From: an uncultured Sulfurovum sp.
GTDB taxonomy: Bacteria; Campylobacterota; Campylobacteria; Campylobacterales; Sulfurovaceae
Direction: 5' to 3'
NCBI GenBank assembly: GCA_913055205.1
Contig: CAJXJN010000007.1
Location: 11,294-75,293, forward strand
DNA length: 64,000 bases
Part shown: one piece after another, positions 55,912-61,320 of the stretch
Numbering within the stretch: position 1 is the first letter of the stretch
How the letters are laid out: every line of letters begins with the position of its first letter
The notes under the pieces: model-generated
Databases searched by the model: none
Seen by the model: only the letters and a program-made list of their open reading frames with translations
What the model was told of the DNA's origin: nothing
Made by a program: the position numbers and the translations under genes

Positions 55912-55940
55912 AGTATAACATTTTTTTTAGAGGGTGTCAA
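55912..55940 (-). promoter_or_regulatory. Sigma70-type promoter on minus strand, divergent from mod
   Basis: TTGACA-17 bp-TATACT with TGn extension. Confidence 0.6.
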
Positions 55941-55986
55941 AGTGTTGTTTGGGTAAAATATCTTATACTATTTTTAGGAATGCCTT

Positions 55987-57813
55987 GTGACTTTAGAGAG
56001 CCTTGATATCAAACAGCAGAAACTACGAGAACTTCAGCAGATAGTACCTGAGATATTTGAAGATGGGGAGATCATCCCTGAGAAGTTGAGAGATATTTTT
56101 GGTGAGCAGGTCAATGAGAGTGCGGAGCACTATAGCTTTACATGGGCTGGTAAGCGTGACTGCTACAAGACCATCCGTGAAAAGACCCATGCTACACTTA
56201 AAGTAGATGAAGAGGTGGCTAATGATAGTGATATTCCTGATGGTGAGAATGTCTTCATAGAGGGAGACAACCTAGAGGTACTTAAACTTCTTCAACTCTC
56301 GTACCATAAAAAAATCAAGATGATTTACATCGACCCACCCTACAACAAAGACAAGGACTTTGTCTACTCGGACACATGGGGTGACAGCATACACAACTAC
56401 CTCGTGCAGACAGACCAGCTCCGTGACGAGGGCTACACCACTACCAAAACCAACAGCACAGGACGCAGACACACCAACTGGCTTAACATGATCTACCCTA
56501 GACTATGGCTTAGCCGTAACTTACTTAAAGACGATGGGGTTATCTTTGTGAGTATCGATGATGACGAGGTGCATAATTTGCGGAAGGTGATGGATGAGAT
56601 TTATGGGGAGGAGAATTTTGTAGCCAATGCTATTTGGGAGAAAAAATATAGTCCTCAAAATGATGCAAAATGGCTTAGTGATAATCATGACCACATATTG
56701 ATTTATGCTAAAAACAAAGAAATATGGCGACCAAATTTATTGCCTCGTACAGATGAACAGAACGCACGATATAAAAACCCAGATAATGACCCGAGGGGAA
56801 ATTGGAAATCTACAGATTTATCTGTTAAGACCTATTCTGAAAAAAATGATTATCCCATTAAAACACCTTCTGGAAGATTAGTTAATCCGCCAAAAGGGAG
56901 ATGTTGGTCAGTTTCCAAAGTAAAGCTTCAAAAACTTATAGAAGATAAAAGAGTTTCATTTGGAGATGATGGTGATGGTGTACCAAGATTAAAAAGTTTT
57001 TTATCAGAAGTGCAACAAGGAACAGTACCATTAACAATATGGAAATATAAAGAAGTTGGTCATAATCAAGATGCATTAAAAGAAATAAAAGACTTATTTG
57101 ATGGATATGCTTATTTCGATACACCTAAACCGACCAAATTACTAAAGAGAATGTTACATTTAGGAAGTAGTGAAGATGACATCATCTTAGACTTCTTTGC
57201 AGGAAGCGGTACCACAGCTCATGCAGTGATGGACTTAAATAAAGAAGATGAGAAAAATGGGAAAATAGGAAATCGTAAATATATTTTAGTTCAACTCCCT
57301 GAAGCTACAGACGAAAAGAGTGAAGTCTACAAAGCAGGGTACACGAAGATAAGTGATATTACCAAAGCACGTATTAAAAAAGCTATGGAAGCTTTGAAAT
57401 ATAAAGAGGGTTTCAAATCATTCTATCTTGACAAATCTAACTTCCAGGTTTTTGAAGAGGTCAAAAAACGCCCCGATATGAGCTATGAAGAGATTGAAAA
57501 GATGCTCAAGATGAGTATGTTCCATGAAAACATCCTCACTCAGGGAGCTAAAGAGTTGGACATTGTCTATGAAGTGGGGCTCAAAAACGGCTTTACACTG
57601 AGTGCAGAGGTAGGAGAGGTGAAGTCTGAGAAATACAGTTTCATTACCCTAACAGAAGAGGAGAGAGTCTTTTACTTTAGCTTCGATAAAAAGATAGAGG
57701 GTGATATCGTCCATGATGTACCTAAAGATGCCAAGCTCATTTGTTATGAAAAAGCCCTCACGACCAATGTAAAGCTGAACTTGCGTGAGAATTTGGATCT
57801 GGAGGTGTTGTAG
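55987..57813 (+). CDS. mod: Type III restriction-modification methyltransferase (Mod)
   Basis: IEGDNLEVLK, IYIDPPYN catalytic motif, FDTPKP, DFFAGSGTT SAM motif; upstream of res. Confidence 0.94.
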   Translation: MTLESLDIKQQKLRELQQIVPEIFEDGEIIPEKLRDIFGEQVNESAEHYSFTWAGKRDCYKTIREKTHATLKVDEEVANDSDIPDGENVFIEGDNLEVLKLLQLSYHKKIKMIYIDPPYNKDKDFVYSDTWGDSIHNYLVQTDQLRDEGYTTTKTNSTGRRHTNWLNMIYPRLWLSRNLLKDDGVIFVSIDDDEVHNLRKVMDEIYGEENFVANAIWEKKYSPQNDAKWLSDNHDHILIYAKNKEIWRPNLLPRTDEQNARYKNPDNDPRGNWKSTDLSVKTYSEKNDYPIKTPSGRLVNPPKGRCWSVSKVKLQKLIEDKRVSFGDDGDGVPRLKSFLSEVQQGTVPLTIWKYKEVGHNQDALKEIKDLFDGYAYFDTPKPTKLLKRMLHLGSSEDDIILDFFAGSGTTAHAVMDLNKEDEKNGKIGNRKYILVQLPEATDEKSEVYKAGYTKISDITKARIKKAMEALKYKEGFKSFYLDKSNFQVFEEVKKRPDMSYEEIEKMLKMSMFHENILTQGAKELDIVYEVGLKNGFTLSAEVGEVKSEKYSFITLTEEERVFYFSFDKKIEGDIVHDVPKDAKLICYEKALTTNVKLNLRENLDLEVL

Positions 57814-57819
57814 TGGGAG

Positions 57820-57848
57820 TTGACATTTCCGGTGCACCATGCTATAAT
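57820..57848 (+). promoter_or_regulatory. Consensus sigma70 promoter between mod and the Abi gene
   Basis: TTGACA-17 bp-TATAAT with TGn extension. Confidence 0.8.
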
Positions 57849-57854
57849 GCACGC

Positions 57855-57900
57855 AACATACTTCCTCCACCTCTTTACAATGTGCCAACGAGGAAGTGCT
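57855..57900 (+). ncRNA. Candidate structured leader / antitoxin RNA of the AbiF-like gene
   Basis: Perfect 8-bp stem ACTTCCTC (57860-67)/GAGGAAGT (57890-97) with inner cac/gtg pairing, directly after the promoter. Confidence 0.5.
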
Positions 57901-57904
57901 TCTT

Positions 57905-58777
57905 ATGATCTCCCAAAACTTCACAAAAGAGCACCTTAACTATGATAAACAGACAGCCTTGTTAACGTCCCGCGGCTTGGTAGTTACAGATACAGATTTG
58001 GTACGTAAAAAGCTGGAGCATATCAGCTACTATAGATTGAGTGCCTACTTCTTGCCGTTTCAGAAAGAAAAAGATATTTTCAATCCTGATACGCGATTTG
58101 AAGAGATTCTCAGGGTGTATTATTTTGACAAAGCACTACGCAAGATCGTATTTGATGCCATAGAAACTTTGGAGATCAACATCAGAGCCAACATAGCCTA
58201 TAACCTCTCCAAAGAGGTAGACCCCTTTGGCTATATGGACAAGGAAAATCTAAATATTGGCTACACTGAGTATATCAATCTCATGCAAACCATACAGAGA
58301 GAGACAAACCGCTCCAGAGAAGCCTTTGTGACGCATTTTAAAAAGCAGTATAACTCTGACATACTTCCTGTTTGGATGATGGTAGAGATCATCTCTTTTT
58401 CGACACTTTCTAAGCTGTTTAAGGCACTGAAGCCAGAGCATGAAACCATGACAGCCAAACTGAACATACCGCCAAAAGTACTCAAAAACTGGCTGCATGT
58501 TATCAATCATATACGCAACATCTGTGCACATCATGGAAGAGTATGGAACAAACAGTTTGCTATCAAAGCACTCCTCCCTAAAAAAGTAACAGCGTTTCAG
58601 GGATTAAAAAATGACAAGATATTTGTAGTGATACTTATGTTGAGTTATATGTTTGATCAGCTAGAAACAGCGGATGGATTTAAAAGCAAAATAGTCTCAT
58701 TACTGGAAGAGTATCCTGATATATCTCTGCAAAGTATGGGATTTAGTGAAGATTGGAAAGAGAGATTATGCAACTAA
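57905..58777 (+). CDS. Abi family (AbiD/AbiF, Abi_2) HEPN RNase
   Basis: Q..LL.SRGL, ISYYRLSAY, YYFDKALR...IETLE, LPVWMMVEIISF, HEPN R-x4-H motif RNICAHH. Confidence 0.88.
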   Translation: MISQNFTKEHLNYDKQTALLTSRGLVVTDTDLVRKKLEHISYYRLSAYFLPFQKEKDIFNPDTRFEEILRVYYFDKALRKIVFDAIETLEINIRANIAYNLSKEVDPFGYMDKENLNIGYTEYINLMQTIQRETNRSREAFVTHFKKQYNSDILPVWMMVEIISFSTLSKLFKALKPEHETMTAKLNIPPKVLKNWLHVINHIRNICAHHGRVWNKQFAIKALLPKKVTAFQGLKNDKIFVVILMLSYMFDQLETADGFKSKIVSLLEEYPDISLQSMGFSEDWKERLCN

Positions 58778-61320
58778 AATACACCACCCAACCCCACCAA
58801 ACCAAAGCCATAGCGTCCATAGTTGATCTTTTTCAAGGGCAGAACAGGCAAGTATGCGAGTATGATATCTTCGATGGTGAAGCAGTGTGTGGTAATGGAT
58901 ATATACTGGATGATGTTGCTATACTGGAGAACTTGCAACGGGTGCAAAGAGAGAATGCCATAGAGGAGTCTTTGATGTTACAGAGTCGTGACTTTTCTGT
59001 GGAGATGGAGACAGGTACAGGGAAGACCTATGTGTACATCAAGTCTATACTTGAACTATATGAGAAGTATGGGTGGAATAAGTATATCATCATTACCCCG
59101 TCAATAGCCATACGCGAGGGAGTGCTGAGTTCTTTGGCTAGCATGAGGGCACATTTTGAGTCACAGTATAAATTTCCTTATGATTATTTTGAGTATGATT
59201 CCTCCAGACTTGGGAGTTTGAAGCATTTTATCCGTGATGATGGCTTACAGATAATGGTAATGACCATAGACAGTTTTAAAAGAGCCAATACCATACTCAA
59301 CATGCCCCAAGAGGGATTTGCAGGGACACCCAAAGAGAGTCTACAGAAGACAAATCCTATACTTATACTCGATGAACCACAGAATATGGAGAGTGAGTTA
59401 AGCAAAACCTCTATAAACGAGTTAAATCCACTCTTTACCCTTAGGTTTTCTGCAACACATAAAAACTATTACAATCTTATTTATACACTTACGCCAAGAG
59501 AGGCACTGAGTCAAGGACTCGTCAAGCAGATAGATGTACTGGCACTGAGTGAAAACCAAACGGTGAATGACAGCTATGTGAATGTACTCAAGATAGAGAT
59601 AGATAAAAAGTCTAAGAGACCTGTGGCAACGTTGGAACTCATCGTGAAAAACAAAGATGAGTTTGTCACAAAGTCTGTCAAAATAAAAGGAAATGATAGC
59701 CTTAAAGAGAAGACTAAAAATCCAATCTACTCTGGGTTTATAGTCGATGAGATCAATGCCAGAGAGATGTATATACAGTTTGAAAATGGTTTACGTTTAG
59801 AGGTTAGTCAGATCAATGGACAAGTTAAACGGCAGATACAAGAACAGCAGATAACTGAAGCCATAGCTATGCATATGAAGAAATATGAAGAGCTCAAAAA
59901 GAAAAACATCAAAGTGTTGAGTCTCTTTTTTATCGATAGGGTGGCTAACTTTTTGACAGAAGAAGATGGCTGGATGCAGGATCATTTTTGTAAAGAGTTC
60001 GATAGACTCAAAGTTGGGTATGAGAGTTTTAAAGATGCGCATACCGAGGATATATATAAATACTATTTTGCCAAGAGAAAATCCGGGTATATTGATGACT
60101 TGAAAAATAATGACAGTGATAGAAAACTGGCAAAAAAGACCTATGACCTTATTATGAAAGAGAAAGAGAAGCTTTTGAGTTTTGAAGAGAAGACGAGTTT
60201 TATCTTTTCTCATAGTGCATTAAAAGAGGGCTGGGATAATCCTAATGTATTTTTCATTACGACACTTAACGATACAAAATCGGAAATGAAAAAACGCCAA
60301 ATTCTTGGACGTGGTGTGCGTTTAGCTGTTGATAGATTTGGAAATAGGGTAGAAGATAAAGAGATCAATAGACTCACAGTGGTTGCCAATGAGAGCTTTG
60401 AAGCATTTGCAAAAGGTTTGCAATTGGAGTATGAAGCTAGTGGTGTTAACAGTGGAACAACAGTTAATAATATTAAAGAGAAAAAGAAAGCCAAACGTAA
60501 GTATACTGAAGCACAATTAAATGATGAATTCAAGGTATTGTGGAAAAAACTAAAGAGCAAAACAATTTTTGAGCTTAAGTTAGATGAAGAGAAATATAAA
60601 GAAAAAGTTATTAGAAAACTACAAGATATAGAAACTAGAGAGCAAAAAATAGTAAAGCAGTTTGGAACTATAGCAGATGAGATCTATGGTTATGTGGCAG
60701 AAGAGAAGAGTTATGCACTTCACTTTGAACAGACGCTTCCTGATTTGGTGAGTGTGATTGAAAAAGAGACAGGTATCACTAGAGGGATGATCATAGATAT
60801 ACTCAATGCTGTAGATTTGAAACCGTTTATACGAAACAGTGATGAGTATGTAAAAAGAGCGATAGAGGCTTTCGATGATGCTAAACATGAGATACTTACA
60901 GAGAGTAGTGATGGTATAGCCTATAAAGAAAGTGGTGAGTATTATGAGTTTGTAAATGTTTTTCCTGAAGAACTGGAGGGATATGATCTTGAAGCGTGTA
61001 AAAAAGGTTTATATGATGCAGAGCAGTGGGATTCAGATATAGAAAAAAACTTTATAGACTGTGCAGATATGCAATTTAAATTTTTTGCAAAACTTCCTAA
61101 GCGATTTAAGATCAAAACACCACTTGGAAATTACAGCCCTGATTTTGCAGTGATTAAGTATGATGAGAGCGAAGGAGCTTTTGTGGTAGAAACAAAAGGA
61201 AGTGATAAGAATAGAGACATGAGAAGTAGAGAATCATGGCAGATAGCTTATGCTAAAAAGCATTTTAAGTTTTTAGATGTGAAGTATAGGGATAAGATTA
61301 AGAAGTGTAATGATATATAG
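58768..61320 (+). CDS. res: Type III restriction endonuclease subunit (Res)
   Basis: METGTGKT Walker A, ILDEPQ, RFSATH, EGWDNPN, QILGRGVRL, C-terminal PDF...ETKG nuclease motif. Confidence 0.94.
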   Translation: MQLKYTTQPHQTKAIASIVDLFQGQNRQVCEYDIFDGEAVCGNGYILDDVAILENLQRVQRENAIEESLMLQSRDFSVEMETGTGKTYVYIKSILELYEKYGWNKYIIITPSIAIREGVLSSLASMRAHFESQYKFPYDYFEYDSSRLGSLKHFIRDDGLQIMVMTIDSFKRANTILNMPQEGFAGTPKESLQKTNPILILDEPQNMESELSKTSINELNPLFTLRFSATHKNYYNLIYTLTPREALSQGLVKQIDVLALSENQTVNDSYVNVLKIEIDKKSKRPVATLELIVKNKDEFVTKSVKIKGNDSLKEKTKNPIYSGFIVDEINAREMYIQFENGLRLEVSQINGQVKRQIQEQQITEAIAMHMKKYEELKKKNIKVLSLFFIDRVANFLTEEDGWMQDHFCKEFDRLKVGYESFKDAHTEDIYKYYFAKRKSGYIDDLKNNDSDRKLAKKTYDLIMKEKEKLLSFEEKTSFIFSHSALKEGWDNPNVFFITTLNDTKSEMKKRQILGRGVRLAVDRFGNRVEDKEINRLTVVANESFEAFAKGLQLEYEASGVNSGTTVNNIKEKKKAKRKYTEAQLNDEFKVLWKKLKSKTIFELKLDEEKYKEKVIRKLQDIETREQKIVKQFGTIADEIYGYVAEEKSYALHFEQTLPDLVSVIEKETGITRGMIIDILNAVDLKPFIRNSDEYVKRAIEAFDDAKHEILTESSDGIAYKESGEYYEFVNVFPEELEGYDLEACKKGLYDAEQWDSDIEKNFIDCADMQFKFFAKLPKRFKIKTPLGNYSPDFAVIKYDESEGAFVVETKGSDKNRDMRSRESWQIAYAKKHFKFLDVKYRDKIKKCNDI

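What the first reader, a model, noticed from the sequence alone, without database searches (positions are those of the whole stretch)
57814..58777. AbiF-like HEPN toxin with its own promoter and structured RNA, nested inside a type III R-M operon
Seen: mod and res, normally adjacent, are separated by an Abi_2/AbiF-type gene with an intact HEPN R-x4-H motif (RNICAH) whose stop overlaps the res start. The 90-bp gap after mod holds a perfect TTGACA-17-TATAAT promoter. It is followed at once by a 38-nt hairpin (ACTTCCTC/GAGGAAGT) whose 3' arm contains the only SD-like sequence (GAGGA) before the ATG. Established: AbiF-family HEPN RNases can be neutralised by a cis-encoded ncRNA, and RNases embedded in R-M loci (PrrC in type I EcoprrI) act as back-up defence. 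Inference: this is a self-contained RNA-antitoxin/HEPN-toxin cassette giving layered anti-phage defence, and its promoter could also drive res independently of mod.
Basis: partly seen in the sequence, partly recalled or inferred. Interest (0 to 1): 0.82.

Follow-up and report, generated by a model that had tools for sequence, protein, structure and literature searches.

The report
AbiF toxin-RNA cassette inside restriction operon
Between the two genes of a type III restriction-modification system sits a complete, already-known kind of phage-defence module: an AbiF-type RNA-cutting toxin gene with its own promoter and a small conserved hairpin RNA of the kind shown to keep such toxins switched off. 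It is real but ordinary, apart from an RNA variant that the public RNA catalogue misses.

Summary
These are type III mod (55987-57813), a 12/12 sigma-70 promoter with extended -10 (57820-57848), a 38-nt hairpin (57860-57897) whose purine 3' arm is the only SD, an Abi_2 gene (57905-58777) with R204-x4-H209, and res (ATG 58768) overlapping the abi stop.

The protein matches the solved PbAbiF (PDB 8VZ6) at 4e-50. The hairpin is a conserved RNA. In 23 loci (protein identity 29-100%), 96% of stem cells pair and 9 of 11 pairs show compensatory changes. A metagenome scan that left the 3' arm free found 122 of 130 loci with at least 7/8 pairing and 53 distinct arm pairs.

Rfam's abiF model (RF03085) does not hit the window. 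It does hit homologous leaders with the same 37-nt architecture, so this is a divergent abiF motif with the inner helix swapped (CAC/GUG for AGC/GCU).

The mod-res junction is a variable cargo slot. Close Res relatives carry Fic, RhuM or AAA_21+DUF4276 there instead.

Both the RNA-antitoxin/AbiF pairing (2025) and Abi2 embedded in R-M operons (2013) are published. This scan has also reported AbiF-plus-leader cassettes many times on other DNA. Verdict: first reading supported; new member of a known kind.

The parts
55987..57813 (+). type III R-M methyltransferase gene (mod), 608 aa
   Evidence: Pfam N6_N4_Mtase 4.5e-36; PADLOC MTase_III 3.8e-174. The orthologue in G156 has a swapped central region.
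57820..57848 (+). sigma-70 promoter of the cassette: -35 TTGACA (57820-25), 17-nt spacer, TGn + -10 TATAAT (57840-48)
   Evidence: 12/12 match. A -10-like hexamer lies 5-6 nt upstream of the RNA motif in 23/23 homologous loci.
57854..57904 (+). 5' leader RNA, a divergent abiF-motif RNA; predicted transcript start about 57854-57856
   Evidence: CM R1 hit 57854-57902, 76.1 bits, the only strong copy in the window and in the genome.
57860..57897 (+). Hairpin. Outer stem 57860-67 / 57890-97 (the 3' arm is also the SD). Inner 3-bp helix 57868-70 / 57882-84. 11-nt loop 57871-81. 5-nt 3' bulge 57885-89.
   Evidence: Fold. Covariation: 96.4% of cells paired and 9/11 pairs with compensatory change, against 42-57% in slid controls. 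Gap-free alignment: 99% paired. 53 distinct arm pairs in metagenomes.
57905..58777 (+). abi gene, AbiD/F (Abi_2) HEPN RNase toxin, 290 aa
   Evidence: Pfam Abi_2 5.7e-55; PADLOC AbiD 7.6e-79; PDB 8VZ6_A (PbAbiF) 4.1e-50 over residues 8-286.
58514..58531 (+). codons of the HEPN catalytic motif R204-N-I-C-A-H209
   Evidence: Translation. R204, N205, A208, H209, R212 and N215 are invariant in 17 homologues.
58768..61320 (+). type III R-M restriction subunit gene (res), 850 aa; its ATG overlaps the abi stop by 10 nt
   Evidence: ResIII 2.1e-14 + RE_endonuc 3.9e-30; PADLOC REase_III 6.9e-195. Junction sequence.

Best explanation
This is an AbiF/AbiD-type abortive-infection cassette of the type III toxin-antitoxin kind. 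It sits in the cargo slot between mod and res of a type III R-M system in a Sulfurovum-like Campylobacterota genome.

Proposed mechanism:
1. A strong sigma-70 promoter starts a transcript at about 57854.
2. The first ~45 nt of the transcript fold into an abiF-motif-like hairpin.
3. By analogy with PbAbiF-AbiFr and AbiFCd-RCd22, the AbiF dimer binds this hairpin. Nucleotides of the single-stranded 3' bulge occlude the HEPN active site and keep the RNase silent.
4. The purine-rich 3' arm is also the abi Shine-Dalgarno. Folding, and presumably protein binding, therefore also throttles abi translation (autoregulation, as for AbiD1).
5. Phage infection is expected to upset the RNA/protein balance and release a non-specific RNase that arrests the cell.
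6. With no terminator and with overlapping stop/start, the same transcript continues into res.

Shown here: the anatomy, protein homology, RNA conservation and covariation, promoter and SD placement, and the slot's variability. Inferred from literature: RNA-protein binding, neutralisation, toxicity and the phage trigger.
For: - Protein: Abi_2 5.7e-55 and AbiD 7.6e-79. 4.1e-50 to the solved PbAbiF chain 8VZ6_A over nearly full length, including the RN.C.HH.RVWNKQ block. Rx4H invariant.
- RNA conservation: the leader is nearly identical in loci whose proteins are only 74-80% identical, with a compensatory change.
- RNA covariation: 23 loci, 96.4% paired, 9/11 pairs with compensatory change, 0/500 shuffles as good, slid controls 42-57%. 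The gap-free MAFFT alignment gives 99%.
- Independent scan: the pattern did not constrain the 3' arm, yet 122/130 loci have at least 7/8 pairs. There are 53 distinct arm pairs (375 WC, 36 G-U, 13 mismatches). The G-U pairs mean the structure works on the sense RNA strand only.
- Same architecture as Rfam abiF hits: L024 47.1 bits and L022 41.0 bits (GA 37), L027 36.8, L025 36.6, L006 24.4. All align with the window under CM R1.
- Cassette layout: -10 box 5-6 nt upstream in 23/23 loci; ATG 3-9 nt after the 3' arm in 21/23; the arm is 6-8/8 purines.
- Literature: the ncRNA neutralises AbiF by blocking the HEPN site (PMC12373285; PMC13064643 and PMC12737573 summarising Zilberzwige-Tal 2025). abiD1 translation is blocked by leader structure (PMC2661086).
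Against: - RF03085 gives no hit on the window leader or anywhere in the genome at E<=10.
- There is one hairpin and no terminator, unlike RCd22 with two motifs plus a terminator. No discrete short RNA is therefore predicted from sequence, and one mRNA supplies only one antitoxin hairpin.
- About a third of complete motifs with enough downstream sequence (29 of 89) are not followed by an intact Abi_2 gene. The RNA can persist or act without the toxin.
- No expression, binding or toxicity data exist for this lineage.
Confidence: 0.85

Rival explanations
1. The hairpin is only a cis-acting expression element that sequesters the RBS and perhaps weakly attenuates transcription. It keeps abi translation low until a phage factor or cold opens it, as described for lactococcal abiD1. 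It does not act as a protein-binding antitoxin.
For: The SD lies inside the 3' arm in all loci and the ATG follows 3-9 nt later. U-rich tracts follow the stem, and L028/L029 have a T6-7 run. AbiD1 precedent: PMC2661086.
Against: Loop (CUCU..AC.AU) and 3' bulge nucleotides are conserved far beyond what pairing needs. The architecture equals that of the abiF motif, for which direct protein binding and neutralisation are published (PMC12373285). Orphan copies occur in phage contigs without any downstream gene to regulate in this way. The two roles are not exclusive.
Confidence: 0.1
2. The promoter-leader module mainly serves the R-M system as an internal promoter and 5' UTR for res or hsdR. The abi gene is a dispensable passenger.
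For: There is no terminator before res, and stop/start overlap. In metagenomes the promoter-leader persists directly upstream of hsdR after abi has been truncated or deleted (L116, L136, L204).
Against: The module travels with Abi_2 into many non-R-M contexts: an ABC transporter operon, STAND, YobI and KAP NTPases. Close Res relatives with other cargo lack the motif. 60 of 89 complete motifs are followed by Abi_2.
Confidence: 0.04
3. The hairpin and promoter are chance features of a short intergenic spacer.
For: The fold z-score alone is modest (-2.2; 7/200 shuffles). Weak promoter-like sites are as common as in shuffles.
Against: Conservation, covariation and fixed spacing across dozens of loci and more than 120 metagenome contigs.
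Confidence: 0.01

Closest known systems
PbAbiF-AbiFr (Prevotellaceae AbiF with its cis-encoded ncRNA; PDB 8VZ6; Zilberzwige-Tal et al., Cell 2025, as summarised in PMC12737573 and PMC13064643)
   Same: Full-length protein homology (4.1e-50). Single HEPN Rx4H. A short hairpin RNA with a single-stranded bulge is encoded immediately upstream.
   Different: Different phylum (Campylobacterota). The RNA sequence subclass is not detected by RF03085. The 3' arm doubles as the SD. The cassette is embedded in a type III R-M operon. No biochemical data.
AbiFCd-RCd22 of Clostridioides difficile phi027 (PMC12373285)
   Same: Abi_2 toxin, a sigma-A/sigma-70 promoter directly before the RNA, the abiF motif, and co-transcription of RNA and toxin.
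   Different: RCd22 has two abiF motifs plus a Rho-independent terminator, and its TSS is 168 nt from the ATG. Here there is one motif, no terminator and a leader of about 50 nt. RCd22 sits in a prophage lysis module, this cassette in an R-M operon.
Rfam RF03085 abiF RNA motif (Weinberg et al. 2017)
   Same: Same 37-nt layout: outer stem, 3-bp inner helix, 11-nt loop CUCU..AC.AU, 5-6-nt 3' bulge. Same position before Abi_2 genes.
   Different: The inner helix is CAC/GUG instead of AGC/GCU (two compensatory swaps). The unpaired A before it is replaced by a paired C-G. The bulge is CCAAC rather than CAAAUC. The model reports no hit at E<=10.
Lactococcal AbiD1 (PMC2661086)
   Same: An AbiD/F-group toxin whose translation initiation region is structured and poorly translated.
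   Different: For AbiD1 the activator is a phage protein or cold. No trigger is known here.
HEPN toxins embedded in R-M operons (Anantharaman et al. 2013, PMC3710099; PrrC-EcoprrI)
   Same: That paper's Table 1 already lists Abi2/AbiF/AbiD as 'embedded in R-M operons'. It proposes the same layered defence logic.
   Different: PrrC has an ABC-ATPase domain and is held silent by the type I R-M proteins. The Abi here has its own RNA antidote and sits in a type III system.

Membership tests
AbiD/F group (Pfam Abi_2, PF07751) | Abi_2 domain above Pfam gathering score | tested here: met
   186.9 bits against a cut-off of 25.6, covering profile positions 2-184 of 184. PADLOC AbiD 7.6e-79.
AbiD/F group (Pfam Abi_2, PF07751) | Conserved HEPN R-x4-6-H catalytic motif | tested here: met
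   R204-NICA-H209; R204, N205, A208 and H209 are invariant in 17 sequences of 22-91% identity.
AbiD/F group (Pfam Abi_2, PF07751) | Full-length similarity to a characterised AbiF | tested here: met
   8VZ6_A (PbAbiF), E = 4.1e-50; query residues 8-286 align to chain residues 9-295.
AbiD/F group (Pfam Abi_2, PF07751) | RNase activity and toxicity to the host | not testable with these tools
   Needs expression and cleavage assays.
Rfam RF03085 abiF RNA | Score at or above the gathering threshold (37 bits) | tested here: not met
   No hit at E<=10 on 2.5 kb, on the 107-nt leader alone, or on the whole genome. Homologous leaders score 47.1, 41.0, 36.8, 36.6 and 24.4 bits.
Rfam RF03085 abiF RNA | Architecture: outer stem, 3-bp inner helix, 11-nt loop with CUCU..AC.AU, 5-6-nt 3' bulge | tested here: met
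   The window aligns column for column with the Rfam-positive L024 and L022 in gap-free A2 and in CM alignment A4.
Rfam RF03085 abiF RNA | Base pairs supported by covariation | tested here: met
   9/11 pairs with compensatory change, 96.4% paired, slid controls 42-57%. 53 arm pairs in metagenomes.
Rfam RF03085 abiF RNA | Located immediately upstream of an Abi_2 gene | tested here: met
   The ATG lies 7 nt after the 3' arm. 60 of 89 metagenomic motifs with room downstream precede Abi_2.
Type III toxin-antitoxin system | RNA binds and neutralises its cognate protein toxin | not testable with these tools
   Inferred from PbAbiF and AbiFCd studies (PMC12373285, PMC12737573).
Type III toxin-antitoxin system | Antitoxin RNA encoded directly upstream of the toxin on the same strand, under one promoter | tested here: met
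   Promoter, leader and ORF are contiguous.
Type III toxin-antitoxin system | Terminator between RNA and toxin that sets an RNA excess (ToxIN, RCd22) | tested here: not met
   No terminator-like site on the + strand. Only a weak U-rich stretch follows the stem. L028/L029 relatives do have a T6-7 run.
Type III restriction-modification system | Mod (N6_N4 MTase, type III) and Res (SF2 helicase + endonuclease) on one strand | tested here: met
   The same arrangement occurs in G156.
PrrC-type R-M-guarded anticodon nuclease | N-terminal ABC-ATPase fused to the HEPN nuclease | tested here: not met
   Only the Abi_2 domain is found in 290 aa.

The most novel reading that the evidence does not exclude
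The cassette may be functionally wired into the restriction system rather than merely parked in it. res is translationally coupled to abi in three independent Abi lineages (ATG..TAA or TAATG overlaps). Res output would then be set by the AbiF-RNA autoregulatory loop, and AbiF would be unleashed when a phage disables restriction, in a PrrC-like way.

In parallel, the promoter-hairpin module has a life of its own. It persists after abi decay in R-M loci. It also occurs as orphan copies in bona fide phage contigs, where it could be a decoy antitoxin against this AbiF lineage.
Probability: 0.15. Interest if true: 0.6.

Novelty: new member of a known kind. Interest (0 to 1): 0.33.

Why it matters
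- It extends the recently established AbiF-ncRNA toxin-antitoxin paradigm, the proposed ancestor of Cas13, to deep-sea/sulfur-oxidising Campylobacterota.
- A large subclass of the antitoxin RNA, with more than 120 metagenome contigs, is invisible to the Rfam abiF model. Annotation pipelines will therefore call these toxins 'orphan'.
- It documents that the mod-res junction of type III R-M systems in this order is a hot-swappable slot for toxin cargo (Abi_2, Fic, RhuM, AAA_21+DUF4276). This is useful for defence-island mining.
- None of this overturns current understanding.

Tried and rejected
Context came instead from the genome search, the fetch from genomes and one metagenome pattern scan.
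- Rfam on the window and RF03085 on the whole genome found no abiF hit. I did not take this as absence because homologous leaders do hit.
- A naive longest-hairpin finder picked wrong stems in about a third of loci.
- R1 did not find the visibly related but more diverged leaders of L019, L026, L028 and L029. It found no motif before the very divergent Abi_2 genes of L086/L087 or before other cargo genes.
- A second copy of the hairpin at the abi stop, as another agent reported for a different subfamily, is not present here. R1 finds one copy only.
- PrrC-type membership was rejected because there is no ATPase domain.
- A possible SRP or other sRNA in the 55700-55986 spacer was checked with Rfam. 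No family reached its threshold; the only match at E<=1 was an implausible eukaryotic snoRNA model (snoR116, E 0.11).
- Base composition does not mark the locus as foreign.
- Neighbour typing in the metagenome set used only a few tblastn queries, so the R-M fractions are lower bounds.

Full report
**Observation**

- mod ends with TAG at 57811-13, and a 91-nt spacer follows.
- The spacer holds TTGACA (57820-25), a 17-nt spacer, and TGn-TATAAT (57840-48). This is the only 12/12 promoter match in 7 kb, where weak promoter-like sites are as frequent as in shuffles.
- From 57860 to 57897 an 8-bp stem plus a 3-bp inner helix folds at -11 kcal/mol (z = -2.2).
- The purine run of the 3' arm is the only SD-like element before ATG 57905.
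- The ORF (290 aa) is Abi_2 (5.7e-55) and PADLOC AbiD (7.6e-79), with RNICAH at residues 204-209.
- res most likely starts at ATG 58768, behind a GGAAAGAGAG purine tract. It overlaps the abi stop by 10 nt. Both mod and res are clear type III R-M subunits.
- No terminator-like site lies on the + strand across the locus.

**Is the hairpin real?**

The fold statistics alone are unimpressive, so I turned to relatives.

Two genome loci with Abi proteins 74-80% identical carry an almost identical leader although they are not between mod and res. One of them has a compensatory stem change.

A protein search of 401 genomes of the same order gave 26 genomes with Abi_2 relatives of 27-93% identity. Read by eye, almost all of their upstream regions show the same layout, in this order:
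- a -10 box;
- a few bases, then AACA;
- a pyrimidine-rich arm;
- a short inner helix and a loop starting CUCU;
- a 3' bulge;
- a purine arm, then the start codon.

I built a covariance model (R1) from a gap-free 10-sequence MAFFT alignment. It finds one hit per locus in 22 of the other loci. In the window and in the whole genome it finds a single strong hit at 57854-57902 (76.1 bits).

Covariation results:
- On the 23-row alignment, 96.4% of cells pair. 9 of 11 pairs show changes on both sides. No shuffle of 500 reaches the observed pairing or covariation score. Sliding the partner by 1-3 columns drops pairing to 42-57% with 0-2 covarying pairs.
- That alignment was fitted to the model. The gap-free MAFFT alignment, which was not, gives 99% pairing and 6 covarying pairs.

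As an independent test I scanned metagenome contigs with a pattern that fixes only the AACA, the inner helix and part of the bulge. It leaves the whole 3' arm free.
- At least 120 contigs match, plus 10 viral contigs.
- 122 of 130 have at least 7/8 arm complementarity.
- There are 53 distinct arm pairs: 375 Watson-Crick, 36 G-U and 13 mismatched cells.
- The G-U pairs would be A-C mismatches on the other strand. The structure therefore belongs to the sense RNA, not to DNA.

**Is it the abiF motif?**

Rfam RF03085 reports nothing at E<=10 on the window (2.5 kb, or the leader alone) or on the genome.

The same model does hit the homologous leaders:
- L024 at 47.1 bits and L022 at 41.0 bits (gathering score 37);
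- L027 at 36.8 and L025 at 36.6 bits;
- L006, which is of the window's type, at 24.4 bits.

The Rfam consensus has a 6-bp outer stem, an unpaired A, the helix AGC/GCU, an 11-nt loop CUCUCAACGAU and a 6-nt bulge. It maps column for column onto the window. The window has CAC/GUG in the inner helix (two compensatory swaps), a paired C-G in place of the unpaired A, the loop CUCUUUACAAU and the bulge CCAAC. The window's RNA is thus a divergent subclass of the abiF motif that fails the formal Rfam threshold.

**The protein**

The protein matches the solved PbAbiF chain (8VZ6_A) at 4.1e-50 over residues 8-286, including the catalytic block. R204, N205, A208, H209, R212 and N215 are invariant in 17 homologues down to 22% identity.

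**Cassette anatomy across relatives**
- A -10-like hexamer (at least 4/6, mostly 5-6/6) ends 5-6 nt before the motif in 23/23 loci. The RNA therefore starts at the conserved AACA.
- A -35 is present only in the window's close kin and in L009.
- The 3' arm is 6-8/8 purines.
- An ATG follows 3-9 nt later in 21/23 loci.

The promoter, RNA and ORF therefore travel as one unit.

**What the literature establishes**
- The ncRNA upstream of AbiF binds the protein and blocks the HEPN site, neutralising a bacteriostatic RNase. This is shown for PbAbiF (structure 8VZ6; bulge nucleotides inhibit the active site) and for C. difficile AbiFCd-RCd22, which acts in cis and in trans (PMC12373285; PMC13064643; PMC12737573).
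- Upstream regions of lactococcal AbiD/F genes are more conserved than the genes themselves and are needed for cloning (PMC13064643).
- abiD1 translation is blocked by its structured initiation region (PMC2661086).
- Abi2/AbiF/AbiD genes 'embedded in R-M operons' were listed in 2013 (PMC3710099).

**Context**

Among 23 genome loci I found:
- type III mod-abi-res in the window, in G156 (same genus), in G026 (Abi 37% identical) and in G051 (29% identical, with extra genes after mod);
- type I hsdM-abi-hsdS...hsdR in three loci, and hsdM-abi in one;
- other neighbours: HsdR-like, type IIG, STAND, YobI, KAP and SMC-like ATPases, Ymh;
- one insertion into an ABC-transporter operon.

In the window/G156, G026 and G051 lineages the abi stop overlaps the res start, as ATG..TAA or TAATG.

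Searching with Res showed that the junction is a variable slot:
- the closest Res relatives (67-81% identity) carry AAA_21+DUF4276 (G363, G372; G313 has an equivalent-sized ORF pair that got no Pfam match) or Fic+HTH (G350) there;
- more distant relatives carry RhuM, unknown genes or a very divergent Abi_2;
- only some have mod directly abutting res (L070, L084, L092).

R1 finds no motif before these other cargos. Two metagenome contigs (L157, L160) combine a 68-71% identical mod/res pair with an Abi only 42% identical to the window's. This points to cargo exchange.

**Mechanism proposed**

The promoter fires at about 57854. The nascent 5' hairpin folds and hides the SD. The AbiF made from rare translation events binds the hairpin, with the bulge in the HEPN site. 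This both neutralises the enzyme and further represses its own translation. The transcript continues into res, whose start is coupled to the abi stop. Type III Res needs Mod to act (my own knowledge), so a mod-independent promoter for res is harmless. Infection is expected to free the RNase. Only the anatomy, homology and conservation are shown here; the rest is inference.

**Side results**
- Of 89 complete motifs with at least 950 nt downstream, 29 are not followed by an intact Abi_2 gene.
- Many of these are followed by truncated or internally deleted abi remnants, often directly before hsdR (L116, L136, L204).
- Others precede a conserved 50-aa ORF, a Fic gene or DUF3800.
- Nine of the ten viral-contig hits score 30-72 bits with R1 and lack abi. 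L213 (anti-repressor, DnaD-like loader), L214 (large terminase) and L219 (PhoH-like) are phage-like. They could be decoy antitoxins. Other agents of this scan proposed the same idea for other phyla.

**Prior reports and verdict**

This scan has reported AbiF-plus-leader cassettes many times before on other DNA (37 notes).

Verdict: observation confirmed and interpretation supported. This is a new member, with an Rfam-blind RNA subclass, of a known kind. Interest is modest.

Noticed in passing
L213:2008-2056 (-), L214:135-183, L218:9885-9933 (-), L219:2026-2074, L220:51-99 (IMG/VR contigs): Orphan copies of the window-type abiF-like hairpin (R1 30-72 bits) sit in phage-like contigs with no Abi_2 gene downstream. 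Neighbours include an anti-repressor, a DnaD-like loader, a large terminase and PhoH. L213 has a TGnTATAAT box 6 nt upstream. They may be phage decoy antitoxins against this AbiF lineage.
   Followed up: partly
L116, L136, L204, L108, L137, L154, L171, L185, L211 (metagenome loci); L054, L055 (genomes G423, G510): The promoter plus leader hairpin is retained in front of truncated or internally deleted abi genes, often immediately upstream of hsdR. The toxin is lost but the RNA and promoter are kept. This could be immunity/anti-addiction or a recycled promoter.
   Followed up: partly
L056:32-80; L059:341-388; L062:1501-1547 (-); L184; L058:678-727; L175: The same RNA motif precedes non-Abi_2 genes: DUF3800 (PF12686) before hsdS; a conserved 50-aa ORF with a T-x3-E-G motif (no Pfam hit) before hsdR; and Fic/DOC+HTH proteins.
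   Followed up: partly
L065-L069, L071, L085 (Res relatives; genomes G363, G350, G313, G372, G144, G118, G064): The mod-res junction of related type III R-M systems carries different cargo in the same slot: AAA_21+DUF4276, Fic+HTH, RhuM, or unknown ORFs. Most are tightly packed against the res start.
   Followed up: partly
window 55695-55986: The 292-nt spacer before mod holds an 11/12 promoter with TG on the minus strand (55940-55912) and a 10/12 one on the plus strand (55695-55723). The minus-strand transcript would cover a long imperfect hairpin (about 55800-55880) with only a 45-aa ORF. No Rfam family reaches its threshold.
   Followed up: partly
L030 (G156) versus window 55987-57813: The mod orthologue in the same-genus genome matches at residues 1-246 and 373-608 (81%) but not in between. 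This fits a swapped target-recognition domain.
   Followed up: no
L001:2307-5977: A 74%-identical Abi cassette with the same leader is inserted between the permease and ATPase genes of an ABC transporter operon. This is another case of nesting inside an operon.
   Followed up: no
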